From IMG/VR virus record IMGVR_UViG_3300032116_000040, positions 58,085 to 122,084 of that record: a DNA stretch of 64,000 bases, one strand, 5' to 3'. Origin of the DNA: a virus (lineage: Duplodnaviria; Heunggongvirae; Uroviricota; Caudoviricetes). The notes under the pieces were generated by a model. That model did not search any database and was not told the origin of the DNA. It saw only the letters and a program-made list of their open reading frames with translations. The first letter of the stretch is position 1. Every line of letters begins with the position of its first letter. Positions 1 through 61,274 of the stretch are shown piece by piece. Position numbers and translations under genes: made by a program.

Positions 1-252
1 CTGTCTCTTTTCAATGGCTAATCTTTGAAAGTGATTTATTGCAGGGTTGTAGTATTTCATTAGGACCTGATCAACGTAAGTTATTTCACCTGATTTTTTA
101 AAGTACTTAAACTGATCGTCCGTCGTCTTTTTTAGACCAAAGAACGCACCGTCCATTTTTTCGTTGATTATAACGTAACCGTTAAGCAATCCATTTAAAA
201 AGTCTTCTCCCCTTTTTTCATAGATCTCCTTTAAATTGTTTATTCCTGCCAT
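1..252 (-). CDS. N-terminal fragment of a putative ATP-dependent polynucleotide (DNA/RNA) ligase-like protein; the rest lies beyond the left window edge
   Basis: Minus-strand ORF with ATG at about 250-252 that runs off the window. Translation MAGINNLKEIYEKRGEDFLNGLLNGYVIINEKMDGAFFGLKK... carries a K-x-D-G nucleotidyltransferase motif I about 30 aa from the N-terminus, as in minimal ligases (cf. T4 Rnl2 EKIHGTNF). Not in the ORF track because it is truncated. Confidence 0.3.
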   Translation of the reverse strand, partial: MAGINNLKEIYEKRGEDFLNGLLNGYVIINEKMDGAFFGLKKTTDDQFKYFKKSGEITYVDQVLMKYYNPAINHFQRLAIEKRQ

Positions 253-269
253 GTAATTAGCCTTTAGAT

Positions 270-833
270 TTATACTTCAACTTGCGATGATCCTGGTTTT
301 TCTTCAGCTGACGCTTCCCTAGTGGACTCAGCAGGCTTTTCTTCTGGTTTTGGAGCAGACATCGCTTTTCTAATGCTTATTGAATCGATACTAATCGAGA
401 TGCTTCTCAAGTTATCTGAATCCTCTGGGTTAGCCGTGAAATATTCGACAACTTTTTTCAAATTAACGTTATTCATCTCTTCTCCGAATCCTCCGGCATC
501 CTCTATCTTTTGTCTTAAGTTTTTAGCCGCTTTCCAAGTTCCGCCATAACTTAGGGACCAGCAATAGAACCTAACCTGCTCGTTTTTACTATTATAATAG
601 TGCACAATATCCTTAATTCTTTGAATGGCTCCGTTTGCATCTCTGTATGTTGTTGCTCGACCTAAGTTATCAGAAGGAACTCCAAATCTTACTTGATCTG
701 AAAGAACTTCCATTAGTTCTCCGATCCTAGTGATTAACTGATCTGAAGGATATCCCTTTAACGGAGAATTCGCCTCAGCCTCTTCTGCTTCCTTAATGTA
801 TTGTAAATAGCCTAGTGTATATTTGGTAGCCAT
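270..833 (-). CDS. hypothetical protein (187 aa), same operon as the kinase/phosphatase genes
   Basis: ORF track. ATAAATAA-type motif 16 nt upstream of the ATG. Confidence 0.5.
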   Translation of the reverse strand: MATKYTLGYLQYIKEAEEAEANSPLKGYPSDQLITRIGELMEVLSDQVRFGVPSDNLGRATTYRDANGAIQRIKDIVHYYNSKNEQVRFYCWSLSYGGTWKAAKNLRQKIEDAGGFGEEMNNVNLKKVVEYFTANPEDSDNLRSISISIDSISIRKAMSAPKPEEKPAESTREASAEEKPGSSQVEV

Positions 834-841
834 CCTAAAAT

Positions 842-860
842 ATTTTTTATTATTTATTAA
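842..860 (-). promoter_or_regulatory. late-promoter-like AATAAATAATAAAAAA motif upstream of 270..833
   Basis: The minus strand reads ...AATAAATAATAAAAAATATTTTAGG-ATG. It belongs to a motif family that recurs 16-20 nt upstream of many start codons in the window (see findings). Confidence 0.45.
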
Positions 861-862
861 GA

Positions 863-1462
863 TTATTTCCCGTTATTTATTAGACTGCTTAGTATTTGAT
901 TGAATTCATTACTGCTTTCATTGTTAAAGTGATTTATCACCCTTACAAAATCGTTATTTCTGCTTGAATCTGAGATCTCATATCTAAATTCTGAGAATAT
1001 TCTCTCAAAAAGTTCCTTTTCACGATTTACATTTTCAAAGTTACCAAAATAGTCCTTGTCCCTTTTAGTAATTTCAATATCCTCATCGCGTTCAACATAT
1101 AGGATTTTACTATTTTGATAAAGATTGCTGATCAAGATCTTTTGAAACTCGCTAAGCAATCTAAATTGATTCATTCTTTCTCGGTATATCGACCAGACGT
1201 ATGCTGAAAATATGCATCTATCAAAGATTAAGATGTGATCCTTCAGCAAAGTCTCATTTAGCTCAAGAATGGTAAGCACATTTGCAATGCTAAAATAGTG
1301 TACTCCTGGGCCAGATTCCTGATCTCGCATTCCAAGATCATCGATATGCTTAGCAAATTGAAACTTATAATAGTGAACATTTGGATTAGTGTTCTGTTCA
1401 AAGAACCTATCGATTAGGAATGTTTTGCCACTATGTCGGTGGCCCTCGATCATAATTATCAT
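863..1462 (-). CDS. P-loop kinase; candidate polynucleotide kinase (Pnk kinase-domain-like)
   Basis: Walker A GHRHSGKT near the N-terminus. A 4-nt ATGA overlap couples it to the upstream HAD phosphatase gene. Confidence 0.45.
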   Translation of the reverse strand: MIIMIEGHRHSGKTFLIDRFFEQNTNPNVHYYKFQFAKHIDDLGMRDQESGPGVHYFSIANVLTILELNETLLKDHILIFDRCIFSAYVWSIYRERMNQFRLLSEFQKILISNLYQNSKILYVERDEDIEITKRDKDYFGNFENVNREKELFERIFSEFRYEISDSSRNNDFVRVINHFNNESSNEFNQILSSLINNGK

Positions 1463-2049
1463 ATCAATTCAATTCTTCTTGGATGACCTGCACTAAAATC
1501 GTAAAGTGCTATTACTTTAGACTTATCGACAAATTGCATGTCTAGGGTGATTAGATCGCTTAGGCTAGTAAAGGATCGGTGTATCTTACGAGTATATTCA
1601 TAAAAGAACTCCTGATATTTCCTTAGCTGTTCTAGCGAATCTTCATATACTACTATATCTTTTACGTTAGGTAAACGAATAAGTTCTTTTTCAAGAATAG
1701 AAATCTTTTCACAAAGCCGACCTAGGAAATAACTTGTATCAAAGGTTATTCCATGCTTGTCCAATAGCTTTTCTGCACAGGGTCTAAGCTCTTCAGTTCT
1801 GTGAGTTATCAAGATCGTTCGTGTATTTGGATCCTGTGAAGCCTTTTTCCAATCTTCATACACAGTTCCGATCAGCTGAATGTTATGAATCTCTGGATCC
1901 ATTGAGGTGGGGTGATCGTAAAACGAATAAGGGGTTGGAAAATTAAGCTCAGGGTGTAATCTTTCTACTGAAAACCTATCAGTATATCCTGGCATTCTAA
2001 ACATAGTCTCATCAAAATCAAAGACTACTAGTCGAGTTATATCTTTCAT
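1459..2049 (-). CDS. HAD-family phosphatase resembling the 3'-phosphatase domain of T4 polynucleotide kinase
   Basis: DxDxT motif VVFDFDETMF near the N-terminus. A second HAD motif ILITHRTE (cf. T4 Pnk VIFDVDGTLA / VVVSGRES). Confidence 0.5.
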   Translation of the reverse strand: MKDITRLVVFDFDETMFRMPGYTDRFSVERLHPELNFPTPYSFYDHPTSMDPEIHNIQLIGTVYEDWKKASQDPNTRTILITHRTEELRPCAEKLLDKHGITFDTSYFLGRLCEKISILEKELIRLPNVKDIVVYEDSLEQLRKYQEFFYEYTRKIHRSFTSLSDLITLDMQFVDKSKVIALYDFSAGHPRRIELI

Positions 2050-6622: not shown

Positions 6623-8056
6623 ATGGAAAACAAAGAAAAACAAATTAAAAAATTAGACCTTAAACAGAATGCGATTAAGATCTTAATTAACTCTATTTAT
6701 GGTGCCTTTGGAAACAAGTGGTTCTATTTTTACAATCCAGATATTGCGCAGTCCATCACTTTACAGGGACAGGATCTAATTAAGTTTTCAATTAAAGCAG
6801 TAAATCACTATTTTTTAGAAAAATGGCATCTTGATACTGAGTTACATCAAAAATTAGGAATCGATGGATATACTATTAATAAGATAGAAGACGAGGCTGC
6901 GATCTACACAGATACTGATTCAATCTATGTCCAGTTTGACTCTGCACTTGACTCAATAGTAGGGGCTAGCTTTACAAAAGACGAAGCATTGAATATATGT
7001 ATCAACATCGATCGATATCGACTCTCTAATTACTTTGATATTTGTTTTGAAAAATATGGGCGTCTGTTTAATACTAAGAATCGACTTAAGTTCAAATTAG
7101 AAAACCTTTCTGAGACTGGAATCTGGCTTAAAAAGAAGAACTATGCCATTCGAGTCGCATACGAACCCAATCCAAACTATGAGCTTGAGCCTCAACAAAA
7201 AAGGTATCTAATAATCAAGGGTCTTGAACCAGTAAAAGGATCATATCCAATCTGGGCTAGAGAAAAGCTAATCGATCTCACGTCTTTCATTATGGATCGA
7301 GGTAAACGTCTTGATATTGAAAAAGATATCGTGCCTCGACTTACTGCTCTTAAAAATGAAGCTCTTTCCCTGCATCCTGACGATCTTGCATTTAACTTTA
7401 ATATCAGAATATACAATAAATACGTTGCTAGTGAAGAGAGATTGGAACTTAAAAAAGGAATTTCCATCTTCCCTAGGGCAGCCGCCATCTATAATCACAT
7501 CCTGATCAAGACGGGACTTGTTGAAAAATACCCTAAGATTAGAGAAAAGGACAAGATCAAGTTTTATTATTGCAATCCTGAAACAAATGATGGAGGTCAC
7601 GACGTCTTTGCATATTCTCCTGGAACATATCCGGATGAAATCGCTCTGCTGATGGATATCGATGCTCAATTCTTTTCGCTAATAGTCGAACCTGTCAATC
7701 GTCTTCTTACTGCAATGAAGATGAGTTCGCTCGATATCAATCTAAAAAGGTCAGTCGATGTCGTCACAGTAAAGAGCAAAAAGGTTTTAACTGATGCTGA
7801 GATTTATCCTTTATACATCGTTGATCAAGAGACATTGGAATACGTTGAGGTTCCAGAGAAATTTTGGAAGATGATCGGTAACCCCGATGCTGAAATTCCA
7901 GAAGAAGATTTTCAAGAATATTTGGGAGTCATCACACGATATGGTCTAAACACAACGATTGTGCCCAAGCCGGAACTAGATAAGTACTTGAAGAGAATGA
8001 CTAAGAAAAAGGAGAAAAATAATCCTGTTCTTGAATTAGAGGAAGAAAATGATTAA
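6623..8056 (+). CDS. 43: family B DNA polymerase, C-terminal (palm/fingers/thumb) segment only; gp43B-like split polymerase
   Basis: KILINSIYGAFGN (KxxxNSxYG motif B) and AIYTDTDSIYV (YGDTDS motif C), close to T4 gp43 KIMLNSLYGALGN / YGDTDS. The ORF starts just before motif B. No exonuclease or motif A region lies upstream. Confidence 0.8.
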   Translation: MENKEKQIKKLDLKQNAIKILINSIYGAFGNKWFYFYNPDIAQSITLQGQDLIKFSIKAVNHYFLEKWHLDTELHQKLGIDGYTINKIEDEAAIYTDTDSIYVQFDSALDSIVGASFTKDEALNICINIDRYRLSNYFDICFEKYGRLFNTKNRLKFKLENLSETGIWLKKKNYAIRVAYEPNPNYELEPQQKRYLIIKGLEPVKGSYPIWAREKLIDLTSFIMDRGKRLDIEKDIVPRLTALKNEALSLHPDDLAFNFNIRIYNKYVASEERLELKKGISIFPRAAAIYNHILIKTGLVEKYPKIREKDKIKFYYCNPETNDGGHDVFAYSPGTYPDEIALLMDIDAQFFSLIVEPVNRLLTAMKMSSLDINLKRSVDVVTVKSKKVLTDAEIYPLYIVDQETLEYVEVPEKFWKMIGNPDAEIPEEDFQEYLGVITRYGLNTTIVPKPELDKYLKRMTKKKEKNNPVLELEEEND

Positions 8057-9185
8057 CCTATTGACTGGATACAACATACACCAATTCATAAAAGATCTCT
8101 TAAAAAAGAGGTTTCCCGAAGATCGATTTAAGCAAGAAGTATACGAGTCTGGCGATAAAATTAATTTTGCTTGTCCATATTGCGGAGACTCCAAATCCGA
8201 TTCTCGAAAAAAGAGAGGAAACTTATATCCTGATCGTAGCTTCTATAAGTGTTATAATGATGGTTGTGGAGTAAAGGTAGATCTCACTAAGTTTATTTCA
8301 AAGTTTTCTCTTAAATATTCGTTGGGTGTTCCTGACATAAAGTCTCCTGAAGTAAAATGGACTCCTCAGACGACTAGGAAGAAGAGAGGCTCGCTCATAG
8401 AATTTTTAATTAGTAAGAACGTCGGTGACCACCTGCTAAGAATAGATGCAATGGTTGACCGTTTTTCGCTGTCTCCGTGCTGTGAGGCTGATGCTGACTC
8501 AAGAGTCGGCTCCTTCATCCGAAATCGAAGCCTGCTAGACCTTCCTCTTTTTAATGAGTGTGCATACTTTGACTCTCGAGACGATAAGATCTATTTATTT
8601 AATATTGATCTCAAGTCAGGTAAGGTCCTAGGATTCGCGATACGTCGAATCGGAGAAGATGTAATTGGACCAAAATACCTGATTAAAAACTACTCTGAAC
8701 TAAAGAAGAACGGTCTTGTTCGAAACGTTGAAGACGATATCGTTTCTGATATCGATTCGATCAACAACTATTTTAATGTGCTAAATGTCGATTTCTCAAA
8801 ACCCATTCTAGTGACTGAGGGCCAGATTGATGCGATGTTTTTAAATAACTCGATTGCAACGACTGGCATCTCCAAGAGCAAGCTGTTACTTGAAAACCTA
8901 TTAAGTAAATCAAATACTTTGATCCTATTTGATAGTGATGTTGCGGGTAAGACACAATCGGTCGACTTGATTAAAAAGGGATATCGAGTATTTTTATGGA
9001 ATAAGATGATGGCAGATCTTCGAAAAAAGTACAATGCGGATTATCGGAACGTTAGACTCATTAAGGATGTGAATGACCTATATTCGTTCATGCTTAAGCA
9101 CGATAGCTCCCTCACGTTCGACTCCTTCAATGCAACAGTTTTACAATACTTTTCTGAATCTCCATTAGATTTGCTCTATGTTTAA
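8049..9185 (+). CDS. 61: DNA primase, gp61/DnaG-like (zinc ribbon + Toprim)
   Basis: FACPYCGDSKSD...YKCYNDGCG matches T4 gp61 FRCPVCGDSKTD...CYNCNY. Toprim ILVTEGQIDAM and LILFDSDVAG. 8-nt overlap with the polymerase gene. Confidence 0.75.
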   Translation: MINLLTGYNIHQFIKDLLKKRFPEDRFKQEVYESGDKINFACPYCGDSKSDSRKKRGNLYPDRSFYKCYNDGCGVKVDLTKFISKFSLKYSLGVPDIKSPEVKWTPQTTRKKRGSLIEFLISKNVGDHLLRIDAMVDRFSLSPCCEADADSRVGSFIRNRSLLDLPLFNECAYFDSRDDKIYLFNIDLKSGKVLGFAIRRIGEDVIGPKYLIKNYSELKKNGLVRNVEDDIVSDIDSINNYFNVLNVDFSKPILVTEGQIDAMFLNNSIATTGISKSKLLLENLLSKSNTLILFDSDVAGKTQSVDLIKKGYRVFLWNKMMADLRKKYNADYRNVRLIKDVNDLYSFMLKHDSSLTFDSFNATVLQYFSESPLDLLYV

Positions 9186-9210
9186 ATAAATAATAAAAAA
9201 TTAAAACTTC

Positions 9211-9519
9211 ATGAAAAGAGTAATGTCTTTTAGAGAATATAAACTAAATGAAATGGAAGAATCTGAAATTCCATTTGAGATCGATGAATCTTTGTTCGAT
9301 GAACTAGTTGAGCTAGTCGGTTCAGAGGAAGACATCGAAGAGGCAGCTGAGGGCGCTTATTCTGATCTTGCAGAAGCAGCAGAAAAAGGAGACGTTGAAA
9401 TGTCAGAAGACGACATGCCAGAAAAACTGGCGATCGCTGCACTATTGGTAAAACTAGTAGAAAAAGGAAAGCTTGGTCCAGACGACGCTGATGGACTAAT
9501 CGAAAAATACTTAGGATAA
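9211..9519 (+). CDS. small acidic hypothetical protein (102 aa)
   Basis: ORF track. AAATAAATAATAAAAAA motif upstream at about 9186-9205. Confidence 0.5.
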   Translation: MKRVMSFREYKLNEMEESEIPFEIDESLFDELVELVGSEEDIEEAAEGAYSDLAEAAEKGDVEMSEDDMPEKLAIAALLVKLVEKGKLGPDDADGLIEKYLG

Positions 9520-9550
9520 TCTTAATTTTGACATATTAAGAGTTTGCTTG

Positions 9551-9580
9551 ACCCGCCACCTAACCGAGGCGGGTTTTTTA
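9551..9580 (+). terminator. rho-independent terminator
   Basis: CCCGCC (9552-9557) / GGCGGG (9568-9573) stem followed by a TTTTTT run. Confidence 0.6.
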
Positions 9581-9597
9581 TTAAATAAATAATTAAT

Positions 9598-10098
9598 ATG
9601 AAACAAGAACGAGACATACATGACTTTCTAAAACCTCAAAAAGGAAAGGTCAAACAAGGTTATTTTACTCCAATGAATCCTGAAAAATATTCGGGAGACG
9701 TTTCAAAGATAATTTACAGATCAAGCTGGGAACTTAAGTTTCTATCCTACTGTGATAACACTGAAGCAGTAGTCGAATATGCATCCGAACCCGTTCCAAT
9801 CGCCTATTGGAATCCGATCCTAAAAAAAGAATCTACTTATTGGGTTGACTGTTACATGGCAACCAAGTCGCCGGATGGAGAGATCACAAAATGGCTCATT
9901 GAGGTCAAGCCTCAAAAGTATCTGACTCCACCCGAAGCTCCAAATAGATTGACTGAGAAGGCGACTCTTAATTATGCTAGACACGCTAAAGCTTACATCA
10001 TCAATGATGCTAAGTTTAGGGCAGCAAAAGTTTATGCCAAAAAGAATAATATGAGGTTTGGAATAATTACAGAAAACTTTCTGTTCAATAAGGTGTAG
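9598..10098 (+). CDS. hypothetical protein (166 aa)
   Basis: ORF track. TTAAATAAATAATTAAT directly upstream. Confidence 0.5.
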   Translation: MKQERDIHDFLKPQKGKVKQGYFTPMNPEKYSGDVSKIIYRSSWELKFLSYCDNTEAVVEYASEPVPIAYWNPILKKESTYWVDCYMATKSPDGEITKWLIEVKPQKYLTPPEAPNRLTEKATLNYARHAKAYIINDAKFRAAKVYAKKNNMRFGIITENFLFNKV

Positions 10099-31325: not shown

Positions 31326-31562
31326 ATGAAAAATGAAAAGAAGTTAAGTCTTAAAATTGGTCCTTGGGGCGTGGTCGCTCTGACGATCGCCTACATCGCG
31401 ATCATGAATCTCTACTTTGAGTACTGCATCAGTAGAGAGTTTGATCCCATTTTGCAAATGGTATCCACCCTAATTGCAATCTATTATACTTGGTGGCAAA
31501 TTAAATTGATCGTGAATACGATCATCAATTACATAACTAATAAAATAAAAAAAGAAGAATGA
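31326..31562 (+). CDS. small two-TM membrane protein (78 aa), translationally coupled to the SPFH gene
   Basis: Two hydrophobic helices. ATGA overlap with the next gene. Confidence 0.45.
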   Translation: MKNEKKLSLKIGPWGVVALTIAYIAIMNLYFEYCISREFDPILQMVSTLIAIYYTWWQIKLIVNTIINYITNKIKKEE

Positions 31563-32461
31563 TTTCAGGTATCTTAATCGCGATTTTTATAATCGTAGCG
31601 ATCGTTAAAGTGGTGATCGCAAAAAATAATGATGACGAACGAGGATTCATCACAGGAATAATAATAGGAGTAGTTGGAATCGTGATCGGGGTCGTTCAGC
31701 CGTTTGCACTAGAAAGAGTCGATGCGGGTCACGTTGGGATCAAAGTTAATCTGACCGGCGATAATCGAGGAGTTTCTAATTACGAATACAAGACTGGATG
31801 GGTGATGTATAACACTTGGGTTGAGCAGCTCCTAGAGTTCCCAACATATCAGCAACACATCGAATACAAGGACCAGACAGTTATCACTAAGGGTGGGTTC
31901 GCAGCTTCAATCAAACCAAGCTTTAACTATTCGCTTAAGCCAAATGCAATAGGAAACATGTTTGAAAACCTACGATTAGACATAAAACAAATTGAGCAGG
32001 GCTGGTTAATGAACGCTATCGTTTCTTCAGTAAATGACGTCGCTAATAAGTGGGAAGTCGACGCGATATTCAATAATCGTGAGCAGTTTGAGGCGGCTAT
32101 CGTTGCTGAGTGTAATAAGAGGCTCTCTAAATGGTTCACTGTTTCTCAGTTAAGAACTAATATCACTCCGCCAACCGCACTTCAACAGGCCATTGAATCT
32201 AAAACTAAGGCTGTTCAGGAAGCGCAAGCTGCGATGCAAAGAAAGCTTGTAGCAGAAGCTGAAGCTCAAGAAAAAATTGCAATCGCAAAGGGTGACTCAG
32301 CTAAGGCGATCATCGACGCCCAAGCTACCGCTCTATCGATCAAGCTTAAGCAGCAAGAATTGAGTCCAGCCTATATCGAATACATTAAATGGACTAGTTG
32401 GAATGGTCAGCTTCCTACAACAATGACCGGAAACACAGGAACTCTATTAAACATAAAATAA
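31559..32461 (+). CDS. SPFH/band-7 (stomatin/prohibitin/HflK-like) membrane protein
   Basis: N-terminal TM. GHVGIKVNLTGD and a coiled-coil AQAAMQRKLVAEAEAQEKIAIAKGDSAKAIIDAQA typical of SPFH proteins. Confidence 0.65.
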   Translation: MISGILIAIFIIVAIVKVVIAKNNDDERGFITGIIIGVVGIVIGVVQPFALERVDAGHVGIKVNLTGDNRGVSNYEYKTGWVMYNTWVEQLLEFPTYQQHIEYKDQTVITKGGFAASIKPSFNYSLKPNAIGNMFENLRLDIKQIEQGWLMNAIVSSVNDVANKWEVDAIFNNREQFEAAIVAECNKRLSKWFTVSQLRTNITPPTALQQAIESKTKAVQEAQAAMQRKLVAEAEAQEKIAIAKGDSAKAIIDAQATALSIKLKQQELSPAYIEYIKWTSWNGQLPTTMTGNTGTLLNIK

Positions 32462-32912: not shown

Positions 32913-33235
32913 TCTCTAAACTTTCCTGGAAAAAGCATTCTCCATTCATGTCCGTGAGGAATGTCCTTCGCTCGTACTCCAAATATCTTTTTTTCGGGTT
33001 GTTCGCAAGGATCTTCTCCGTTCCATTTAAACCCATTTCGACAGGCCCAATTTTTCATAAATGGTTTCTGTAGAGGCTGACCTGTCACGAATGGAAATCT
33101 GACACCTGCTTCGTTATCGATCTCTTCAATCTTGCCGTGTTTTACCTTGATCTCAATCGTTCTTCCCATTCTTGACTTAAGAGTGATCTCCTCCTCTCGC
33201 TGCCAACTTTCAAATAACTGAATGTACTTTTTCAT
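32909..33235 (-). CDS. small protein (108 aa) of unknown function, last gene of the cyclase-patatin operon
   Basis: Its start overlaps the patatin stop. N-terminus MKKYIQLFESWQREEE. Confidence 0.45.
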   Translation of the reverse strand: MKKYIQLFESWQREEEITLKSRMGRTIEIKVKHGKIEEIDNEAGVRFPFVTGQPLQKPFMKNWACRNGFKWNGEDPCEQPEKKIFGVRAKDIPHGHEWRMLFPGKFRD

Positions 33236-34194
33236 TAATTAAAAAACTTTTGTAATTTTTCCATCTCGTCAGGATTAGTTAGTATCTGTGAATATACTCT
33301 TTCTATCAAATATTTATAGGTTGCTGGTCTAGAATCAGCCATGTCGCTCTTTTTTTCATCGTCGATTGACACTTGAAAACGTAGGTGTTTTTTCAATATC
33401 TCATCACACTCGTATGTGACCGCTTTTGCTGATGCTTGCATCATGATAGAGGTGATCGGCTTTATCCAGTTTATTGCTCCCCAACCAGTTGTTTTTTCAT
33501 CTAAACTTTCTGAATATATTCCAGTACCTAGTGAAAGACACTCGATATTGCTTATATCAACGTCTGGTCGGCTACGTAAGACGTCAGCTACTGCTGCCAT
33601 CGCTGGATTATTAATGTACACTCCGCCGTCTACTAATAGACGACTCTTAGCTTTAAAATCCATCTCGTATGAAGGAAGATATGTGGGAGCAGCAGAAGTT
33701 GCTCTACATATTTCTTTTAACTTAGCGTTATATTCAGGTCCAGCGCTAGCTAGCCTGCTTTTAAACATTACTACCTCGTTGTTTTTAATGTCATACGAAC
33801 TTACAATGATGGGTTTTAAAGTATCCTTTAGTGTAGAATCTGAAAAATATTCACCCAATAGCCTGTCTAATCCATCAGGAGAAAACTTTGGATTAAATAT
33901 CGAGTTTATTCCAGTTATTGCTTTTGAAAATATGTTTCTCTTATATGGAAATATCTCAGTTCCCTTGTCAGTATATAGGGATATTAACTGGTCTAGGCTA
34001 ACTGCTGGCTTTTTTCCGTCTTTCGTATAGGTCAATCCGCAGGCTATTATTCCACCAGTCGAGGTTCCAGCAATGACATCAAAAAGCTCATGGATGAGTT
34101 TACCTTGGGTCTTTTCAATCTCCTTTAATATCAAGAGGGGAATTATTCCACGAAGACCTCCTCCGTCTAGTGACAGTATTCTAATTTTTTCCAT
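33235..34194 (-). CDS. patatin-like phospholipase
   Basis: LSLDGGGLRG (oxyanion GGGxR/KG), AGTSTGG (GxSxG nucleophile), LVDGGVYINNP (DGG catalytic Asp). Confidence 0.8.
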   Translation of the reverse strand: MEKIRILSLDGGGLRGIIPLLILKEIEKTQGKLIHELFDVIAGTSTGGIIACGLTYTKDGKKPAVSLDQLISLYTDKGTEIFPYKRNIFSKAITGINSIFNPKFSPDGLDRLLGEYFSDSTLKDTLKPIIVSSYDIKNNEVVMFKSRLASAGPEYNAKLKEICRATSAAPTYLPSYEMDFKAKSRLLVDGGVYINNPAMAAVADVLRSRPDVDISNIECLSLGTGIYSESLDEKTTGWGAINWIKPITSIMMQASAKAVTYECDEILKKHLRFQVSIDDEKKSDMADSRPATYKYLIERVYSQILTNPDEMEKLQKFFN

Positions 34195-34195
34195 G

Positions 34196-34897
34196 TTATA
34201 CTTTTATTTTATATGCAGTTGTTTTTGCTACTCCTTTAAGGGACCTAAGAGGTTCACACGAATGCAGTTGAAGTTCAGATAAGAGTCGACCGCTTCGTTT
34301 TCTCTTGCCTTCCCAACATCTCTGCTGATAATCGATGATCTCAAGCTTCATCTTTTTAGATGTCACCAAGTCCTCGATCTTTTTTTCTTCTGACTTTGGT
34401 AGGTTTTCAGTAAAGCTAAAGGTCACATAACCTGGCTCAGACACAGTTGACTCCATTCTAGATGCAGTATTGACCGTGTTTCCAAAGTAGTCCCAAAGCT
34501 TTTTTCCTTGGACATCAGTCTGTTTTTTATAGAGCGGACCCCAACAGATTCCCAAACGAATCGTCATTGATTTTTCTTTTATCTTGATAGGTTTTTCCCT
34601 AAGATCCATCTGTATGTCAAGCCCAGCTGCAACCGCTCTAAGTAAGGAGTTAGATCCTTCGAAGCTTACCATGTAACTATCGCCGATTGTTTTTACAATC
34701 ATGCCGTCATGCTTAGCTAAGATCTTTTTGATTCTTTTTCCGTGCTCTTCCAATGCTTCAAACATTCCGGCTTCATGTAGCTTCCATAGCTTAGAGCTCG
34801 ATTTAACATCAGTAAAAAGAATAGCTTGTTCTTTTTCTTGAAGCTTTTTTAAAGAGTCGACACTTTCCCAAATAGGATACGATAGTAAATGTTTCAT
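34196..34897 (-). CDS. class III nucleotidyl (adenylate/guanylate-type) cyclase domain protein
   Basis: LFTDVKSS (first metal Asp), KTIGDSYMVSF (second Asp), IRLGICWGPLY (R-x-G-x-x-x-G-P), YFGNTVNTASRMES (N...R transition-state residues). Confidence 0.7.
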   Translation of the reverse strand: MKHLLSYPIWESVDSLKKLQEKEQAILFTDVKSSSKLWKLHEAGMFEALEEHGKRIKKILAKHDGMIVKTIGDSYMVSFEGSNSLLRAVAAGLDIQMDLREKPIKIKEKSMTIRLGICWGPLYKKQTDVQGKKLWDYFGNTVNTASRMESTVSEPGYVTFSFTENLPKSEEKKIEDLVTSKKMKLEIIDYQQRCWEGKRKRSGRLLSELQLHSCEPLRSLKGVAKTTAYKIKV

Positions 34898-52994: not shown

Positions 52995-53894
52995 ATGAGC
53001 ATATCTAAACTAAACTTAACAAATCCGATGGATTCGGATGTAAAATTCAAGATCTCTCGGTTTCCTGATGGACAACAAACTGTAGATATCGAATCTGCAC
53101 CAATGTATATCAATGGATTAGATGTTAAGATCTATTCTCGAATGAATTCTTTTCGTGATATCGAATTGATTATTGCTGCCAATCAAGCTCTTAGAGAAAT
53201 GGCGGTAGGAACCGTTACCTTATATGTTCCTTATTTCTTGGGTGCACGCTCGGATCGTAAATTTCAACAAGGAGGAACCAATTACTTAAAGCAAGTGATT
53301 TGTCCAATCATCAATGCACAAAAATTCGATTGTGTAATTGTTTTAGATCCACACTCAGATGTACTCGAAGCTTGCTTAAATAACTTCGGAAAGATTGATA
53401 ACCATACAATCGTTAAGTATGCTCTTACAAATATCGATAATCGAAACGCCGCTCGAGACAGAATCTGTTTAGTTTCACCGGACGGCGGTGCTCTAAAGAA
53501 AATCTATGACATCGCACACGAGTTTCAAATTCATCATCTTGTCACGGCAATGAAACACCGCGACATTCAAACTGGAAAAATCAATCATACTGAAGTTCCG
53601 ACCTTGCCAGCTTCTCTTGATGGTGAAAAAATGAAATATGTTATAGTTGATGATATCTGTGATGGAGGTAGAACATTCACTGAATTGGCAAAAGCAATTC
53701 ATGCCCAGCAGCCGGAAGCTAAACTTTACTTAATCGTAACACATGGAATCTTTTCTGCAGGATTTGAAGATCTGAGCAAGTACTTTACTAAGATTTACAC
53801 ATCCAATTCTGTAAAAGATATCATGAATGAAAATGATGATACTGATGCAGAAAGAGCTGCAAAACAAATCGTAACACAATTTAACGTATTCTAA
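52995..53894 (+). CDS. ribose-phosphate pyrophosphokinase (PRPP synthetase) family protein; candidate ADP-ribose pyrophosphokinase of a phage NAD+ reconstitution pathway
   Basis: KFKISRFPDGQQTVDIE, YVPYFLGARSDRKF, LDPHSD and the PRPP-binding loop YVIVDDICDGGRTF parallel E. coli Prs (GRFSDGEVSVQI, IPYFGYARQDRR, VDLHA, VLVDDMIDTGGT). Confidence 0.75.
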   Translation: MSISKLNLTNPMDSDVKFKISRFPDGQQTVDIESAPMYINGLDVKIYSRMNSFRDIELIIAANQALREMAVGTVTLYVPYFLGARSDRKFQQGGTNYLKQVICPIINAQKFDCVIVLDPHSDVLEACLNNFGKIDNHTIVKYALTNIDNRNAARDRICLVSPDGGALKKIYDIAHEFQIHHLVTAMKHRDIQTGKINHTEVPTLPASLDGEKMKYVIVDDICDGGRTFTELAKAIHAQQPEAKLYLIVTHGIFSAGFEDLSKYFTKIYTSNSVKDIMNENDDTDAERAAKQIVTQFNVF

Positions 53895-54370
53895 TGAAGA
53901 TAATCAAACCTCCACACTCAATATCGAAAAACTACGATAGACGAACCAAAAGAGTGTTTTTAGCCGGCACGATAGAGATGGGAAACTCCCATGACTGGCA
54001 GAGCCAGGTGGAAGAGGCTCTCATTAATACTGAGTGCACGATATTAAATCCACGTAGAGAGGCATGGGATTCAAGTTGGGAACAGAGGATCGAGAGTCCT
54101 CAATTCTATCAGCAAGTCAATTGGGAACTGGATGCTCTTAATAAATCCGATCTGATCATCCTGAACCTCCTGCCTGACTCCAAATCACCTATCTCTCTTC
54201 TTGAATTAGGATTATACGCTAGTAGTGGAAAATTACTGGTATGCTGCCCAGATGGATTCTGGAGAAAAGGCAACGTTGAGATCGTGTGTGAGAGATACGA
54301 CATTCCACTATACGAAAGCCTAGCCGATCTTTTAAATTCACTTACGATAAATCAAGCTATAATAATATGA
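53894..54370 (+). CDS. nucleoside 2-deoxyribosyltransferase / Rcl (DNPH1) / LOG-like N-glycosidase superfamily protein
   Basis: N-terminal RVFLAGTIE (LAG motif) and SLLELGLYASSGK (catalytic Glu context) in a protein of about 158 aa. Translationally coupled on both sides. Confidence 0.45.
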   Translation: MKIIKPPHSISKNYDRRTKRVFLAGTIEMGNSHDWQSQVEEALINTECTILNPRREAWDSSWEQRIESPQFYQQVNWELDALNKSDLIILNLLPDSKSPISLLELGLYASSGKLLVCCPDGFWRKGNVEIVCERYDIPLYESLADLLNSLTINQAIII

Positions 54371-54543
54371 AAGAACAAAAATTTTTAATCATTGATGATG
54401 CATCTGAAGTAAATTCATACTTACGTGATGGATGGGAAGTAATTTCGGTAACAGCACAACATGTTGCAGCCGCAGGATCACATAGCTGGTCAGAAAAACT
54501 TGAAGGTAAATTTGCAGTAGTAATCGAAAAACAAAAACAATAA
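54367..54543 (+). CDS. small protein (58 aa) between the Rcl-like and NAMPT-like genes
   Basis: ATGA overlap with the upstream gene. Ends 3 nt before the NAMPT ATG. Confidence 0.35.
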   Translation: MKEQKFLIIDDASEVNSYLRDGWEVISVTAQHVAAAGSHSWSEKLEGKFAVVIEKQKQ

Positions 54544-54545
54544 AT

Positions 54546-56051
54546 ATGAATCCATTATTATTAACTGATGGTTATAAAACATCGCATAATAGACAGTATC
54601 CAGAAGGAACTACTCTAGTCTATTCAAACTTTACACCACGATCTAACAAGTACGCACCGAAAGGATGTGACGAAGTAGTAGTGTTTGGAACACAGATGGT
54701 CATGATTCAGCTTCACGAGATGTTTCAAAAAGATTTCTTTGATAAACCAAAAGATGATGTGTGTCGTGAAATGAAACAAGAATTGTCAATGTATTTGGGA
54801 ACAGAATATGACGTTTCTCACTTTGAAAAGCTACACGACTTGGGTCACTTGCCGATCCATGTTAAATCTCTACCTGAAGGAACCAAGGCACCGATTAAAG
54901 TTCCGGTACTTACGATCTATAACACGCATCCTGATTTCTATTGGATAACAAATTACTTGGAAACGATCCTTTCAAACCTATTGTGGAAACCAATGACATC
55001 AGCAACAATTGCTCATCAGTACAGAAAAGTATTGACCGAGTGGATGTTAAAGACAGATAAGGGCAATGCTTCATTCATTGACTGGCAAGGTCATGACTTC
55101 TCAATGAGAGGAATGGACTCAGTAGAAGCGGTAATTAGTTCTGGCTTGGGCCACTTAACATCATTCTGGGGCACCGATTCATTACCAACAATCTATGGTG
55201 CTCGTAAATACTATGGTGAAGAAGGTTTCTTTTGCGGATCAGTTCCTGCCACTGAACACTCAGTTATGTGTGCAGGTGGAAAAGAGGACGAAGTTGAGAC
55301 ATTCCGCAGATTGTTGAAGACATATCCTACCGGAATCCTTTCAGTTGTATCTGATACTTGGGATTTATTTAAAGTGTGTACAGAACACGTAGTTACTTTG
55401 AAAGAAGAGATCATGTCTCGTGACGGTAAGTTAGTTATTCGCCCTGACTCAGGAGATCCCGTTGATATTCTTTGTGGTAATACATTTACAAAACATGGTG
55501 AATATGTAGGAAAAGGCACATCATTTTATATCGAATCTACGGATGACACGCCTGACGCAAAGGGAGTAATTGAATTACTTTGGGATGTATTCGGTGGAAC
55601 TATCAATGAACAAGGTTACAAAGTTCTTGATTCACACATCGGAGCTATCTATGGTGACTCAATCACGATTGACAGAGCAAACGAAATCTGTAAGCGTTTA
55701 GAAGCAAAAGGGTTTGCATCAACAAACGTAGTGTTAGGTATTGGATCATTCACATATCAATACAATACCAGAGATACATTTGGTTTCGCAATGAAAGCAA
55801 CTTATGTTGAGGTAAATGGTGTTGGTAGAGAAATCTTTAAGGATCCGATTACTGATGATGGTACAAAGAAATCTGCAACAGGTTTATTAAGTGTTCACAA
55901 TCATGATGGTAAATATGTTTTAGTTGATCGTTGTACTTGGGAAGGTGAAGAAGTTAGTTCACTCCAAACCATTTATGAAGATGGTGAATTTGGTGTATTT
56001 TCAACTTTAACTGAAATTAGAGCTCGTTTAAAAGATGATAAGAAACTTTAG
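54546..56051 (+). CDS. nadV: nicotinamide phosphoribosyltransferase (NAMPT/NadV) family protein; candidate nicotinamide ADPR transferase
   Basis: MNPLLLTDGYKTSHNRQYPEGT N-terminus typical of NAMPT. 501 aa. GTDS and other family blocks present. Confidence 0.8.
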   Translation: MNPLLLTDGYKTSHNRQYPEGTTLVYSNFTPRSNKYAPKGCDEVVVFGTQMVMIQLHEMFQKDFFDKPKDDVCREMKQELSMYLGTEYDVSHFEKLHDLGHLPIHVKSLPEGTKAPIKVPVLTIYNTHPDFYWITNYLETILSNLLWKPMTSATIAHQYRKVLTEWMLKTDKGNASFIDWQGHDFSMRGMDSVEAVISSGLGHLTSFWGTDSLPTIYGARKYYGEEGFFCGSVPATEHSVMCAGGKEDEVETFRRLLKTYPTGILSVVSDTWDLFKVCTEHVVTLKEEIMSRDGKLVIRPDSGDPVDILCGNTFTKHGEYVGKGTSFYIESTDDTPDAKGVIELLWDVFGGTINEQGYKVLDSHIGAIYGDSITIDRANEICKRLEAKGFASTNVVLGIGSFTYQYNTRDTFGFAMKATYVEVNGVGREIFKDPITDDGTKKSATGLLSVHNHDGKYVLVDRCTWEGEEVSSLQTIYEDGEFGVFSTLTEIRARLKDDKKL

Positions 56052-60437: not shown

Positions 60438-61274
60438 ATGACCGATCAATTAGGCGACAGAATGAAGGACTTTTACGAAGACCGAACACGTTACAAGTTG
60501 GCACGTCGCACCAACACAATCATCCGCATCGACGGAAAAGCTTTCCATACTTATACTCGAGGACTTAAGCGTCCATTCGATGAAGGGTTAATGGAAGACA
60601 TGAACAAGACAACTGAGTACCTATGTCAGAATATCCAAGGTGCAAAATTTGGATACGTTCAATCAGATGAGATTTCAATTCTCATCACTGATTACGATGA
60701 CATTTCTACACATGCTTGGTTTGATGGTAACTTGCAGAAAATGGCAAGTATCGCTGCTTCATTGGCAACTGCAAAGTTTAACCAACTAAGAACACTAAGA
60801 AGAATGGAAGAACTTCATGATTACGAAATCATGAGCGTAGTGGAAGAAACTAAACTTGCAATGTTCGATGCTCGAGTATTTCAAATTCCTTACCAAGAGG
60901 AAGTGATTAATTACTTTATTTGGAGACAACAAGATGCTACAAGAAATTCTATTTCTTCTGTTGCTCAAGCTTACTTCTCCTCAAAGGAATTACATGGAAA
61001 GAAAACCAATGAAATGCAAGACATGCTGATGTTGGAAAAAGGAATCAATTGGAATGATTTTACCCCAAGAGAAAAACGAGGATCTCTTATCCGTAAAGTA
61101 GAAAAGACTTATGTGAAATTACAATCTGGACAAACAGTTCAAGTAAATCCTTCCCAAGTAGATCCTAGATTAAACGAAACATTCTCAAGAAACAAATGGG
61201 AAGCTGATAAAGAAACCCCAATCTTTTCGCAAGATAAATGTTATCTTCGTGAGTTAATGCCAAACCACAATTAG
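60438..61274 (+). CDS. Thg1-like protein (tRNA-His guanylyltransferase family 3'-5' nucleotidyltransferase)
   Basis: TIIRIDGKAFHTY, FGYVQSDEISILI and NLQKMASIAASLATAKF align with the Thg1 blocks VVVRLDGRNFHRF, IAYGQSDEYSFVF and FKRRASKFMTHVASQFAS. Confidence 0.65.
   Translation: MTDQLGDRMKDFYEDRTRYKLARRTNTIIRIDGKAFHTYTRGLKRPFDEGLMEDMNKTTEYLCQNIQGAKFGYVQSDEISILITDYDDISTHAWFDGNLQKMASIAASLATAKFNQLRTLRRMEELHDYEIMSVVEETKLAMFDARVFQIPYQEEVINYFIWRQQDATRNSISSVAQAYFSSKELHGKKTNEMQDMLMLEKGINWNDFTPREKRGSLIRKVEKTYVKLQSGQTVQVNPSQVDPRLNETFSRNKWEADKETPIFSQDKCYLRELMPNHN

What the first reader, a model, noticed from the sequence alone, without database searches (positions are those of the whole stretch)
1..2049. 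RNA-repair-like operon: HAD phosphatase, P-loop kinase, unknown protein, ligase-like protein; Pnk split with reversed domain order
On the minus strand the genes run phosphatase (DxDxT), kinase (GHRHSGKT) with an ATGA overlap, a 187-aa protein, then a ligase-like protein (KMDG motif I) that runs off the window. T4 Pnk is a single kinase-N / phosphatase-C protein that works with RNA ligase to reverse host anticodon-nuclease damage. Here the two activities are separate cistrons in the opposite order, and a Thg1-like enzyme sits at 60438..61274. Together they suggest an expanded tRNA end-healing and sealing toolkit against tRNA-targeting defences.
Basis: partly seen in the sequence, partly recalled or inferred. 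Interest (0 to 1): 0.55.

Follow-up and report, generated by a model that had tools for sequence, protein, structure and literature searches.

The report
Unorthodox phage RNA-end repair-like cassette
A large group of uncultured giant phages carries a tight gene cluster (phosphatase, kinase, unknown protein, and an RNA-ligase-like domain fused to an NAD-synthase-like adenylyltransferase) that resembles an RNA repair kit, but its kinase is not of the expected type and the ligase's catalytic lysine is dispensable.

Summary
The four minus-strand ORFs, the ATGA overlap and the Thg1 gene are all real. Contigs 100% identical to the window complete the cut gene. It encodes 624 aa: an Rnl2-like ligase-fold domain, a helical domain and an NMNAT-like HIGH-family adenylyltransferase. 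A T5 A1-like metallophosphoesterase gene follows.

- **Phosphatase:** an intact "Swiss-army-knife" (SAK) HAD, a family already reported as a stand-alone RNA-repair phosphatase in jumbo phages.
- **Ligase lysine:** K32 of the "KMDG" motif is replaced in 16 of 158 family members, in at least five separate groups. It is absent from distant huge-phage homologues. Yet this domain is the best-conserved part of the protein.

The cassette is syntenic across a large phage-only lineage, with no relatives in 185,579 cellular genomes.

My best reading (about 0.4) is an unorthodox RNA end-healing and sealing system. In it, the NMNAT-like domain may build the A5'pp5'N intermediate directly. The rivals are a nucleotide/NAD+ salvage cassette, and unrelated neighbours. 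The "split, reversed T4 Pnk" idea is not supported as homology. The finding is a new variant of a known kind.

The parts
1459..2049 (-). 196-aa HAD phosphatase of the 'Swiss-army-knife' (SAK) family. First gene of the cassette.
   Evidence: Pfam HAD_SAK_1 scores 31.8 bits against a cut-off of 25.6. 15 of 17 lineage members hit it, best E 1.4e-9. There is a weak phrog_415 'polynucleotide kinase' hit at 1.6e-4. D11, D13, T15, T82, K115 and D137 are invariant, covering HAD motifs I-IV. No solved relative is found by sequence.
863..1462 (-). 199-aa P-loop kinase of the thymidylate / deoxynucleoside / NadR-RNK kinase fold class. Its start overlaps the HAD stop (ATGA).
270..833 (-). 187-aa lineage-specific protein of unknown function: a conserved domain of about 150 aa plus an acidic, Pro-rich tail.
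   Evidence: 199 homologues, all unnamed and all in the same phage lineage. 31 columns are invariant. No Pfam, PHROG, NCBIfam or PDB match. It is absent from the diverged L047 cassette.
1..252 (-). First 84 codons of a 624-aa three-domain protein: Rnl2-like ligase-fold domain (about 1-235), helical domain (about 250-385) and NMNAT-like HIGH adenylyltransferase (about 425-595).
   Evidence: The full gene comes from identical contigs (L001:8664-10538). Pfam CTP_transf_like scores 27.4 bits against a cut-off of 21, and RNA_ligase 23.2 against 27. 22 of 22 and 15 of 22 members hit these two families. The profile against PDB finds archaeal NMNAT at 0.004. Foldseek finds Trl1-LIG at 1e-6, T4 Rnl2 at 2e-6, and PPAT/NMNAT at 3e-6 to 1e-4. 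K32 is K in 141 of the 158 aligned sequences, replaced in 16 and gapped in 1.
60438..61274 (+). 278-aa Thg1-like 3'-5' polymerase. It belongs to the phage's RNA-end toolkit but lies 58 kb from the cassette and is not part of it.
   Evidence: Pfam Thg1 3.9e-28 and Thg1C 8e-4; phrog_4717 'tRNA-His guanylyltransferase' 1.3e-92.

Best explanation
The ORFs form a co-directional, probably co-transcribed cassette that continues beyond the window's left edge. It is fixed in a large clade of uncultured T4-like jumbo phages. I think it most likely processes broken RNA (tRNA) ends, using non-standard parts.

Proposed roles (all catalytic roles are inferred):
- The SAK-family HAD phosphatase removes 3'/2'-phosphates.
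- The downstream T5 A1-like metallophosphoesterase may open 2',3'-cyclic ends.
- The P-loop kinase supplies the 5'-phosphate.
- The 624-aa fusion protein binds the ends with its Rnl2-like and helical domains and joins them.
- The 187-aa protein is an unassigned partner.

The motif-I lysine has been replaced repeatedly while the NMNAT-like motifs never change. I therefore infer that the classical lysyl-AMP step is dispensable. The NMNAT-like domain may build the A5'pp5'N-RNA intermediate directly from ATP and a 5'-phosphate end. This is the same bond chemistry as NMN + ATP -> NAD+.

Shown here: the gene structure, the family and fold assignments, the conservation patterns and the synteny.
For: Three of the five parts have RNA-repair affiliations:
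- HAD_SAK_1 above Pfam's cut-off, in 15 of 17 members.
- RNA-ligase fold and Pfam RNA_ligase hits.
- A calcineurin-type phosphoesterase immediately downstream (phrog_1745 2e-152, phrog_221 1e-9, motifs read by eye).

The genes are tightly packed: an ATGA overlap, then 29-, 17- and 47-nt gaps.

The cassette is kept down to 36-40% identity (L047) and in all 36 viral loci.

Published surveys describe the same component mix in phage RNA-repair neighbourhoods: a ligase, a stand-alone SAK HAD, a 'nucleotide kinase' and a calcineurin-like phosphoesterase (PMC7824862; PMC9503650).

The phage also encodes Thg1.

On the lysine: the ligase-fold domain is the best-conserved part (71% mean identity against 64.5% for the NTase domain), yet K32 is lost in 16 of 158 members while G433, Q436, G441 and H442 are invariant and T522 and R526 vary in only 2 of 158 (T->S, R->K).

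Distant huge-phage homologues sit next to methyltransferase genes, as ligases do in Pnkp-Hen1-type systems.
Against: - The ligase nucleophile is not conserved. In huge-phage homologues, motif I and the motif-V lysines are absent. The ligase fold may therefore be non-catalytic.
- HMM and hhalign find no solved ligase by sequence.
- The whole region is syntenic, including the helicase, polB and structural genes. Adjacency within the lineage is therefore weak evidence of shared function.
- Outside the lineage the genes are not linked.
- The window holds no tRNA genes and no Rfam matches.
- No SAK HAD has a demonstrated RNA substrate, to my knowledge.
Confidence: 0.4

Rival explanations
1. A nucleotide or NAD+ salvage cassette. 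The kinase phosphorylates a free nucleoside or nucleotide, for example nicotinamide riboside as in NadR, or dNMPs as in T4 gp1. The NMNAT-like domain makes NAD+ or another dinucleotide. The HAD is a mononucleotidase. The ligase-fold domain is a regulatory or binding module.
For: - The NTase domain is closest to archaeal NMNAT, NadM, NaMNAT and PPAT, with the motif GRFQPxTxGH.
- A kinase with an NMNAT-like domain encoded two genes downstream recalls the NadR architecture. Phage NadR is a proven anti-defence enzyme (NARP3, PMC13464706).
- The next gene resembles T5 A1, which is tied to host DNA breakdown.
- The dispensable ligase lysine fits a non-ligase role.
Against: - The phage already carries a NARP1-like Adps/Namat pair that needs no NMNAT. 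NARP1 and NARP2 were not found together in any phage (bioRxiv 10.1101/2024.02.11.579819).
- Every NMNAT, TMPK and NadR equivalog score is far below cut-off.
- The TMP-phosphate arginine of the TMPK 'FSANR' segment is absent (by eye, alignment).
- The HAD belongs to the RNA-repair-associated SAK family.
- This reading gives no reason for the very strong conservation of the ligase-fold and helical domains.
- No PnuC was seen.
Confidence: 0.3
2. Not a functional unit. The genes are independent neighbours in a syntenic core block. Examples would be a dNMP kinase for DNA precursors, a housekeeping phosphatase, and a ligase-fold protein kept for a non-catalytic role, as T4 RNA ligase 1 (gp63) has in tail-fibre attachment.
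For: - The whole region, from the helicase to the baseplate-like genes, is syntenic in all loci.
- Genes further downstream look structural: phrog tail sheath and baseplate wedge hits for the 197-aa protein.
- The HAD is lost in L036-38 and the 187-aa gene is absent in L047, with the rest kept.
- Huge-phage homologues of the ligase fold lack the catalytic lysines and the NTase domain.
- Distant kinase relatives sit beside an Asn-synthase-like gene and no ligase.
Against: - The ATGA coupling of HAD and kinase, and the very short gaps.
- The fusion to an NTase whose catalytic motifs are essentially unchanged (G433, Q436, G441, H442 invariant; T522 and R526 vary in 2 of 158) argues for enzymology, not only structure.
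- The component mix matches described RNA-repair neighbourhoods.
- The gp63 dual role is recalled from knowledge, and gp63 is Rnl1-type, not Rnl2-type.
Confidence: 0.2
3. This is a T4-type Pnkp/Rnl pathway whose kinase and phosphatase domains have been split into two cistrons in reversed order, working with a classical lysine-adenylating RNA ligase.
For: - The gene order and the DxDxT, P-loop and KMDG strings are real.
- The HAD has a weak phrog_415 'polynucleotide kinase' hit.
- The window's own protein does have K32.
Against: - The kinase is not in the Pnk family.
- The HAD is of the SAK type, not the Pnk-fused HAD type (PMC7824862).
- K32 is replaced by N, Q, R or V in 16 of 158 members, including an 81%-identical clade seen on 14 contigs.
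- Motif V keeps a single lysine (by eye).
- The fused NMNAT-like domain has no counterpart in T4.
Confidence: 0.08

Closest known systems
Phage RNA-repair neighbourhoods with a stand-alone 'Swiss-army-knife' HAD, a nucleotide kinase, a calcineurin-like phosphoesterase and an ATP-dependent RNA ligase (Iyer et al. 2021, PMC7824862; Iyer et al. 2022, PMC9503650)
   Same: The component classes are the same: a SAK HAD as a separate gene, a P-loop kinase, a metallophosphoesterase, a protein of ligase fold, and a Thg1 elsewhere in the genome. The setting, a jumbo phage, is also the same.
   Different: Here the ligase fold is fused to a HIGH-family (NMNAT-like) nucleotidyltransferase. Neither survey mentions this fusion in the passages my term searches returned (the nucleotidyltransferase they pair with ligases there is RlaP, of the Pol-beta family). 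The ligase lysine is dispensable. The kinase is a small, separate family of 112 representatives among 1.84 billion proteins. A lineage-specific 187-aa protein is inserted.
T4 Pnkp + Rnl1/Rnl2 (tRNA anticodon-loop repair)
   Same: A HAD DxDxT phosphatase, a P-loop kinase and a protein of Rnl2-like fold in a T4-like phage. By eye, the PDB-checked T4 Rnl2 sequence shares EKxxGxxF, K(K/R)(S/T)G, FGxE and PhhxxGK segments with the ligase-fold domain.
   Different: The kinase and phosphatase are separate proteins from other families. hhalign against T4 Rnl2 finds nothing. The nucleophilic lysine is not invariant. There is an extra NMNAT-like domain.
NadR / NARP3 (NMNAT + ribosylnicotinamide kinase) and archaeal NMNAT/NadM
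   Different: All equivalog scores are far below cut-off (for example NF002243 19.5 bits against 127). The kinase and the NTase are in different proteins, separated by another gene. The NTase is fused to a ligase fold. No PnuC transporter was seen.
Fungal/plant Trl1 (ligase + kinase + CPDase) and bacterial Pnkp (kinase + metallophosphoesterase + ligase)
   Same: Trl1 LIG-KIN is the best Foldseek hit for the 624-aa model (9r3w, 1e-6). The overall logic is the same: a ligase-fold domain with a helical domain and a further alpha/beta nucleotide-binding domain, plus a kinase and a phosphoesterase.
   Different: The third domain is a HIGH nucleotidyltransferase, not a P-loop kinase. TM-scores are low (0.2-0.38) because the domain arrangement differs. 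There is no sequence-level relationship.

Membership tests
HAD superfamily, SAK family (Pfam PF10307 HAD_SAK_1) | Score at or above Pfam's gathering cut-off | tested here: met
   31.8 bits against a cut-off of 25.6. 15 of 17 diverse lineage members match, best E 1.4e-9.
HAD superfamily, SAK family (Pfam PF10307 HAD_SAK_1) | Catalytic motifs I (DxDxT), II (T/S), III (K) and IV (acidic pair) | tested here: met
   D11, D13, T15, T82, K115 and D137 are invariant, and S138 nearly so, in 17-27 sequences of 22-74% identity.
HAD superfamily, SAK family (Pfam PF10307 HAD_SAK_1) | Acts on RNA 3'/2'-terminal phosphates | not testable with these tools
   This is a prediction in the literature (PMC7824862, PMC9503650).
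T4-type polynucleotide kinase-phosphatase (Pnkp) | Kinase domain related to T4, Cth or mammalian Pnk kinase domains | tested here: not met
T4-type polynucleotide kinase-phosphatase (Pnkp) | Kinase and HAD phosphatase on one polypeptide, kinase at the N-terminus | tested here: not met
   There are two cistrons, HAD first, overlapping by ATGA.
Thymidylate kinase / dNK-like nucleotide kinases | P-loop preceded by hhhEG, and a DR(Y/H/S)-type motif after strand 3 | tested here: met
   The sequence reads IEGHRHSGKT and IFDRC. E6 is nearly invariant, and G7, G12, K13, D81 and R82 are invariant in 69 sequences. The alignment to yeast TMPK places DR on DRY.
Thymidylate kinase / dNK-like nucleotide kinases | Curated family score (Pfam PF02223, TIGR00041) | tested here: not met
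NadR-type ribosylnicotinamide kinase (Pfam AAA_28) | Curated family score and structural similarity | tested here: inconclusive
ATP-dependent RNA ligase, Rnl2-like (Pfam PF09414) | Nucleotidyltransferase fold of covalent ligases | tested here: met
   Foldseek finds Trl1-LIG at 1e-6, T4 Rnl2 at 1.8e-6 and archaeal Rnl3 at 1.6e-3. The model's pLDDT is only 69.
ATP-dependent RNA ligase, Rnl2-like (Pfam PF09414) | Score at or above Pfam's gathering cut-off | tested here: not met
   23.2 bits against 27 for the window's protein. 15 of 22 members reach E < 0.01, best 7e-6.
ATP-dependent RNA ligase, Rnl2-like (Pfam PF09414) | Invariant motif-I lysine nucleophile (KxDG) | tested here: not met
   Position 32 is K in 141, N in 7, R in 4, Q in 4 and V in 1, with one gap, out of 158. 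It is N or D in four huge-phage homologues. The window's own copy has K.
ATP-dependent RNA ligase, Rnl2-like (Pfam PF09414) | Motifs III, IIIa, IV and V | tested here: inconclusive
   Candidates by eye are E95 (155 of 158), Y119, E/D209 and K228 (158 of 158). Motif V has only one lysine. hhalign to T4 Rnl2 fails. These residues are not kept in the huge-phage homologues.
HIGH-superfamily nucleotidyltransferase (Pfam PF01467) / NMNAT | Pfam cut-off reached, plus the (H/T)xGH and ISxTxxR-like motifs | tested here: met
   27.4 bits against 21. 22 of 22 members match. GRFQPITMGH has G441 and H442 invariant. In WGTTDRR, T522 is kept in 156 of 158 and R526 in 156 of 158.
HIGH-superfamily nucleotidyltransferase (Pfam PF01467) / NMNAT | NMNAT equivalog score (NCBIfam) | tested here: not met
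   NF002243 scores 19.5 against 127. TIGR01527 scores 15.6 against 181. The substrate is therefore unassigned.
Thg1 / Thg1-like protein | Pfam Thg1 catalytic domain above cut-off | tested here: met
   98.4 bits against 29.2. phrog_4717 scores 1.3e-92.

The most novel reading that the evidence does not exclude
The 624-aa protein would be a new kind of RNA end-joining enzyme. An NMNAT-like HIGH-family adenylyltransferase domain adenylylates the 5'-phosphate RNA end directly, making the same A5'pp5'N bond as in NAD+. The Rnl2-like domain then only positions the ends and catalyses sealing. This would explain why the lysine nucleophile can be lost. A related variant is that the fusion installs or removes NAD-type 5' caps on RNA.
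Probability: 0.15. Interest if true: 0.85.

Novelty: new variant of a known kind. Interest (0 to 1): 0.6.

Why it matters
Phage RNA-repair kits and NAD+ reconstitution pathways are both active fronts in the phage-bacterium arms race. This cassette sits between the two.

It is fixed in a very abundant clade of uncultured jumbo phages. The 624-aa protein alone has at least 798 homologues, and every source annotates it as hypothetical or as a generic cytidyltransferase.

If the fusion protein joins RNA without a lysyl-AMP intermediate, it would add a mechanistic class to the polynucleotide ligases. It could also provide a new enzyme for RNA ligation or 5'-adenylylation.

If the cassette instead makes NAD+ or another dinucleotide, it would be a further NAD+ rebuilding route, next to NARP1-3.

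Either way, the repeated loss of the 'invariant' ligase lysine in a strongly conserved domain is a concrete puzzle that can be tested.

Tried and rejected
- **Megablast against phage records:** the first 6 kb has no match.
- **Single-sequence PDB searches:** only noise for the 624-aa protein and the kinase. The close-family kinase profile (A2) also found nothing. Only the wider profile (A3) reached TMPK.
- **hhalign of the family alignment against T4 Rnl2:** no relation detected, probability 3%. The motif correspondences are therefore by eye only.
- **Profiles of the HAD and the 187-aa family against PDB:** nothing.
- **Is the 187-aa protein fused into the 1043-aa L047 protein?** No similarity.
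- **Fusions of the kinase family as Rosetta stones:** none informative.
- **tblastn against annotated phage genomes:** no match for the kinase, and one unlinked huge-phage hit for the HAD.
- **Xanthomonas phages BUDD and X1:** a stand-alone homologue of the NTase domain follows a 286-aa ORF containing 'WKLDG' and a 336-aa ORF containing 'GDIDIQVD'. I could not confirm a ligase or RlaP identity. This remains a lead only.
- **The search for related loci with the wide kinase alignment:** failed because no stretch was conserved enough.
- **Burroughs & Aravind 2016 RNA-repair survey:** not held in the library.
- **The NMNAT-like domain as the obligatory partner of the phage's NAMPT-like gene:** rejected. 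That gene is 52-53% identical to the NARP1 Namat proteins of SPbetaL1 and FADO, and a Prs-like gene lies one gene upstream of it.
Full report
**Observation.** The window's first 2,049 bases carry four co-directional ORFs on the minus strand, exactly as described:
- 1459-2049: 196 aa, with VVFDFDETMF (DxDxT).
- 863-1462: 199 aa, with IEGHRHSGKT.
- 270-833: 187 aa.
- 1-252: 84 aa, with NEKMDG, cut by the window edge.

The HAD stop and the kinase start overlap as ATGA at 1459-1462. The next gaps are 29 and 17 nt. A consensus scan finds fewer promoter-like and terminator-like sites inside the block than shuffles give. The Thg1-like gene at 60438-61274 is solid (Pfam Thg1 3.9e-28, phrog_4717 1.3e-92).

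**Genome context.** The window comes from a T4-like jumbo phage known only from metagenomes.
- It has a T4-type portal (Portal_T4 1.9e-61), PhoH, a split family-B DNA polymerase and a gp13-like gene.
- It has 38% G+C.
- It has no megablast match in GenBank phage records.
- Identical genes lie on contigs up to 248 kb.
- The 64 kb hold no tRNA gene and no Rfam family.
- Public sources name the four proteins 'hypothetical'. For close relatives they use 'thymidylate kinase', 'phosphopantetheine adenylyltransferase' or 'cytidyltransferase-like'.

**Completing the cut gene.** Contigs carrying the identical 187-aa gene match the window with 0 mismatches over 2,081-9,000 bases and extend to the left. 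The cut gene encodes 624 aa.

Pfam finds CTP_transf_like at residues 430-514 (27.4 bits, cut-off 21). It also finds RNA_ligase at residues 26-181 (23.2 bits, cut-off 27). Among 22 diverse members, 22 hit the first family and 15 hit the second.

A family profile reaches archaeal NMNAT in the PDB (E 0.004). NCBIfam lists only NMNAT, NaMNAT and PPAT models, all far below their cut-offs.

An AlphaFold2 model (pLDDT 69, pTM 0.37, so domain level only) gives these Foldseek matches:
- N-terminal half: fungal Trl1 LIG-KIN (1e-6), T4 Rnl2 (1.8e-6) and Candida glabrata Trl1 ligase.
- C-terminal domain: PPAT, NaMNAT and NMNAT (3e-6 to 1e-4; TM 0.6-0.7 relative to the targets).

The architecture is therefore a ligase-fold domain (about 1-235), a helical domain (about 250-385), a disordered linker, and an NMNAT-like HIGH nucleotidyltransferase (about 425-595). 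The protein does have the ligase fold. It is not a plain ligase.

**The ligase lysine.** In the model, K32 sits in the loop between strands 26-31 and 36-42, as motif I should. By eye, several segments parallel the PDB-verified T4 Rnl2 sequence:
- E31-K32-x-x-G35-x-x-F38
- K52-K53-S-G
- FGFE95
- Y119
- PPIIFEGKL
- E209-T-hhFRF
- LAK228

hhalign does not detect the relation.

Across 158 family members, position 32 is K in 141, N in 7, R in 4, Q in 4 and V in 1, with one gap. The replacements fall in at least five separate sequence groups. One is an 81%-identical clade seen on 14 contigs and deposited at NCBI as UFOVP972_247. E31, G35, G39, K42, K53, E156, G157 and K228 are invariant.

The ligase-fold domain is nevertheless the most conserved part of the protein. 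Its mean pairwise identity is 71%, against 64.5% for the NTase domain.

Distant homologues exist in huge phages: LR756500 at 29% identity with the NTase domain, and LR756501, LR756502 and LR756504 without it. They have N or D at position 32 and lack K181, K183 or K228.

A true autonomous ligase does not tolerate this. Either the domain is non-catalytic, or the lysyl-AMP step is bypassed. By contrast, the HIGH-family motifs are essentially fixed: G433xFQP and G441-H442 never vary, and T522 and R526 of WGT522xxR526 each vary in only 2 of 158.

**HAD phosphatase.** The gene scores above Pfam's cut-off for HAD_SAK_1, 'HAD domain family 1 in Swiss Army Knife RNA repair proteins' (31.8 against 25.6). 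So do 15 of 17 lineage members of 22-74% identity. All four HAD motifs are invariant. No solved relative is detectable by sequence.

Iyer et al. (PMC7824862) already state that jumbo-phage RNA-repair phosphatases are of two kinds: a Pnk-fused HAD, or the SAK family, 'which tends to occur as a standalone domain'. A separate phosphatase cistron is therefore known biology, not a rearranged Pnk.

**Kinase.** Single-sequence and close-family searches give only sub-threshold P-loop, AAA_28 and Thymidylate_kin hits. An exhaustive profile search finds only 112 representatives at E <= 0.001 among 1.84 billion proteins, so this is a small family.

A 69-member profile finds the following in the PDB, and no polynucleotide kinase:
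- Yeast thymidylate kinase, over the whole domain (4.1e-5).
- A deoxynucleoside kinase (6e-4).
- SPbeta YorR.

The AF2 model is excellent (pLDDT 95). All 50 best Foldseek PDB hits are TMPK, dNK or dCK.

The hhhEG-P-loop and DR motifs are of TMPK/dNK type. The arginine of the TMPK 'FSANR' segment, which binds the dTMP phosphate, is missing (by eye).

The kinase therefore belongs to the nucleoside/nucleotide-kinase fold class, with an unknown acceptor. It does not prove a dNMP kinase: all curated family scores fail (TIGR00041 16.5 against 83).

**The 187-aa protein and the downstream gene.** The 187-aa protein is confined to this lineage (199 homologues). It has 31 invariant columns and an acidic, Pro-rich tail. 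It matches nothing in Pfam, PHROGs, NCBIfam or the PDB.

The gene after the 624-aa protein, 47 nt downstream, encodes 519 aa. It matches phrog_1745 'DNA transfer protein' (2e-152) and phrog_221 'metallo-phosphoesterase' (1e-9). By eye, it shows the calcineurin-type motifs GDLH, HDVFDG, SNHD, GQHGD and GHYH. This makes it a T5 A1-like phosphoesterase. Genes further on look structural.

**Conservation.**
- All 36 IMG/VR loci with a homologue of the 624-aa protein keep the order helicase - two small ORFs | HAD - kinase - 187 aa - 624 aa - 519 aa - 646 aa.
- The most diverged set (L036-38 and L042, 46% identity) lacks the HAD.
- A further lineage (L047) has kinase identity of 36% and 624-aa-protein identity of 40%. 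It keeps a 161-aa HAD - kinase - a 1043-aa protein made of ligase fold + NTase + a C-terminal extension. It has no 187-aa gene.
- Because the whole region is syntenic, adjacency within the lineage is only modest evidence of a shared function.
- Outside the lineage the parts separate. Distant kinase relatives sit beside an Asn-synthase-like gene. In the huge phage where both were located (LR756502), the HAD and the ligase-fold gene are about 32 kb apart.
- In two huge-phage genomes (L056 from LR756500 and L057 from LR756501) the ligase-fold gene sits next to a methyltransferase gene.
- A pattern scan of 185,579 bacterial and archaeal genomes found no relatives of the 624-aa family.

**Other genes that bear on the question.** The window also encodes:
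- a Prs-like protein (52995-53894; phrog_619 2e-64);
- a nucleoside 2-deoxyribosyltransferase-like protein (53894-54370);
- a NAMPT-like protein (54546-56051; NAPRTase 4e-38, phrog_448 8e-196).

The NAMPT-like protein is 52-53% identical to those of Bacillus phages SPbetaL1 and FADO. In those phages this pair was shown to be Adps/Namat of NARP1 (bioRxiv 10.1101/2024.02.11.579819). The phage therefore probably rebuilds NAD+ without needing an NMNAT. This weakens, but does not exclude, an NAD+-synthesis role for the cassette. NadR-type NARP3 shows that phages do use a kinase together with an NMNAT (PMC13464706).

**Mechanism.** I commit to an RNA end-healing and sealing system of unorthodox composition, at confidence 0.4.
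- The HAD removes 3'/2'-phosphates, with the metallophosphoesterase possibly acting on cyclic ends.
- The kinase supplies the 5'-phosphate.
- The fusion protein joins the ends.

The family, fold, motif and synteny results are shown. Every substrate assignment is inferred.

NMNAT chemistry is NMN 5'-phosphate + ATP -> A5'pp5'N + PPi. The same reaction applied to a 5'-phosphate RNA end would give AppRNA. I therefore propose that the NMNAT-like domain can replace ligase steps 1 and 2. This would explain the dispensable lysine.

The rivals are:
- a nucleotide/NAD+ salvage cassette (0.3), favoured by the kinase results and the NMNAT-like domain;
- unrelated neighbours, with a non-catalytic ligase fold (0.2);

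**Novelty.** RNA-repair kits in jumbo phages, stand-alone SAK HADs, 'nucleotide kinases' and calcineurin-like phosphoesterases next to ligases, and sporadic Thg1 genes are all published (PMC7824862, PMC9503650).

Three points are not mentioned in the passages of those surveys that I retrieved, nor in any source annotation I could find:
- the fusion of an Rnl2-like fold with an NMNAT-like HIGH nucleotidyltransferase;
- the repeated loss of its lysine;
- this particular kinase family.

I could not read the 2016 Burroughs-Aravind survey, so prior description cannot be excluded. My verdict is a new variant of a known kind, with interest 0.6.

Noticed in passing
window 52995-56051 (+): A Prs-like gene (299 aa), a nucleoside 2-deoxyribosyltransferase-like gene (158 aa, Nuc_deoxyri_tr2 2.6e-34) and a NAMPT-like gene (501 aa) lie in a row. 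The NAMPT-like protein is 52-53% identical to the proven NARP1 Namat proteins of Bacillus phages SPbetaL1 and FADO. This looks like a NARP1 (Adps/Namat) NAD+ reconstitution pair with an extra inserted gene of unknown role.
   Followed up: partly
window 33235-34897 (-): A patatin-like phospholipase gene (319 aa) is adjacent to a class III nucleotidyl cyclase gene (Guanylate_cyc, 233 aa). This resembles a cyclase-plus-effector pair of a Pycsar/CBASS-type defence system, carried by a phage (precomputed Pfam).
   Followed up: no
window 31559-32461 (+): A 300-aa Band_7/SPFH protein. From memory of the 2016 Burroughs-Aravind survey, SPFH modules have been proposed as RNA-repair scaffolds. I tested no link to the cassette.
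   Followed up: no
L052:11923-13482 (47 nt beyond the 624-aa gene, left of the window): A 519-aa T5 A1-like protein (phrog_1745 'DNA transfer protein' 2e-152) with calcineurin-type metallophosphoesterase motifs. It is probably the fifth gene of the cassette.
   Followed up: partly
window 6623-10098 (+): The family-B DNA polymerase appears split. The 477-aa ORF holds only part of DNA_pol_B and is followed by a 378-aa ORF. A Tn7 TnsA-like endonuclease gene (9598-10098) sits between the polymerase and the portal.
   Followed up: no
L047:5472-9714 (JGI 3300042583): A diverged relative has a 161-aa HAD, a 189-aa kinase and a 1043-aa protein: ligase fold, NTase and a C-terminal extension of about 420 aa with no detectable relative. 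The 187-aa gene is missing. Motif I reads EKIDA and the NTase motif is a classical HSGH.
   Followed up: partly
L056-L059 (huge phages LR756500, LR756501, LR756502, LR756504): Distant homologues of the ligase-fold and helical domains lack the motif-I lysine (E-N/D-x-x-G). Three of the four also lack the NTase domain. Two sit next to SAM-methyltransferase genes, and one next to an ATP-dependent DNA ligase gene.
   Followed up: partly
L060:3128-6477 (Xanthomonas phage BUDD; the same arrangement occurs in phage X1): A stand-alone 162-aa homologue of the NTase domain (GRFQPVHNGH) overlaps the end of a 286-aa ORF that contains 'WKLDG'. It lies two genes after a 336-aa ORF that contains a Pol-beta-like 'GDIDIQVD'. 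This could be a separate-gene version of the ligase + HIGH NTase pairing. It is unconfirmed.
   Followed up: partly
L043:6001-7970 and L050:3171-5113: A distant subgroup of the kinase family (E 1e-11 to 1e-15 to the profile) is followed by a gene that overlaps its end. In L043 that gene is a 469-aa Asn-synthase-like protein (GATase_6/7 + Asn_synthase) and no ligase is nearby. In L050 and L051 the overlapping downstream gene has no recorded Pfam hit. The wider kinase family is therefore not tied to RNA ligases.
   Followed up: partly
window 1-64000: There are no tRNA genes and no Rfam matches at gathering score in 64 kb of a jumbo phage that carries Thg1 and a repair-like cassette.
   Followed up: yes
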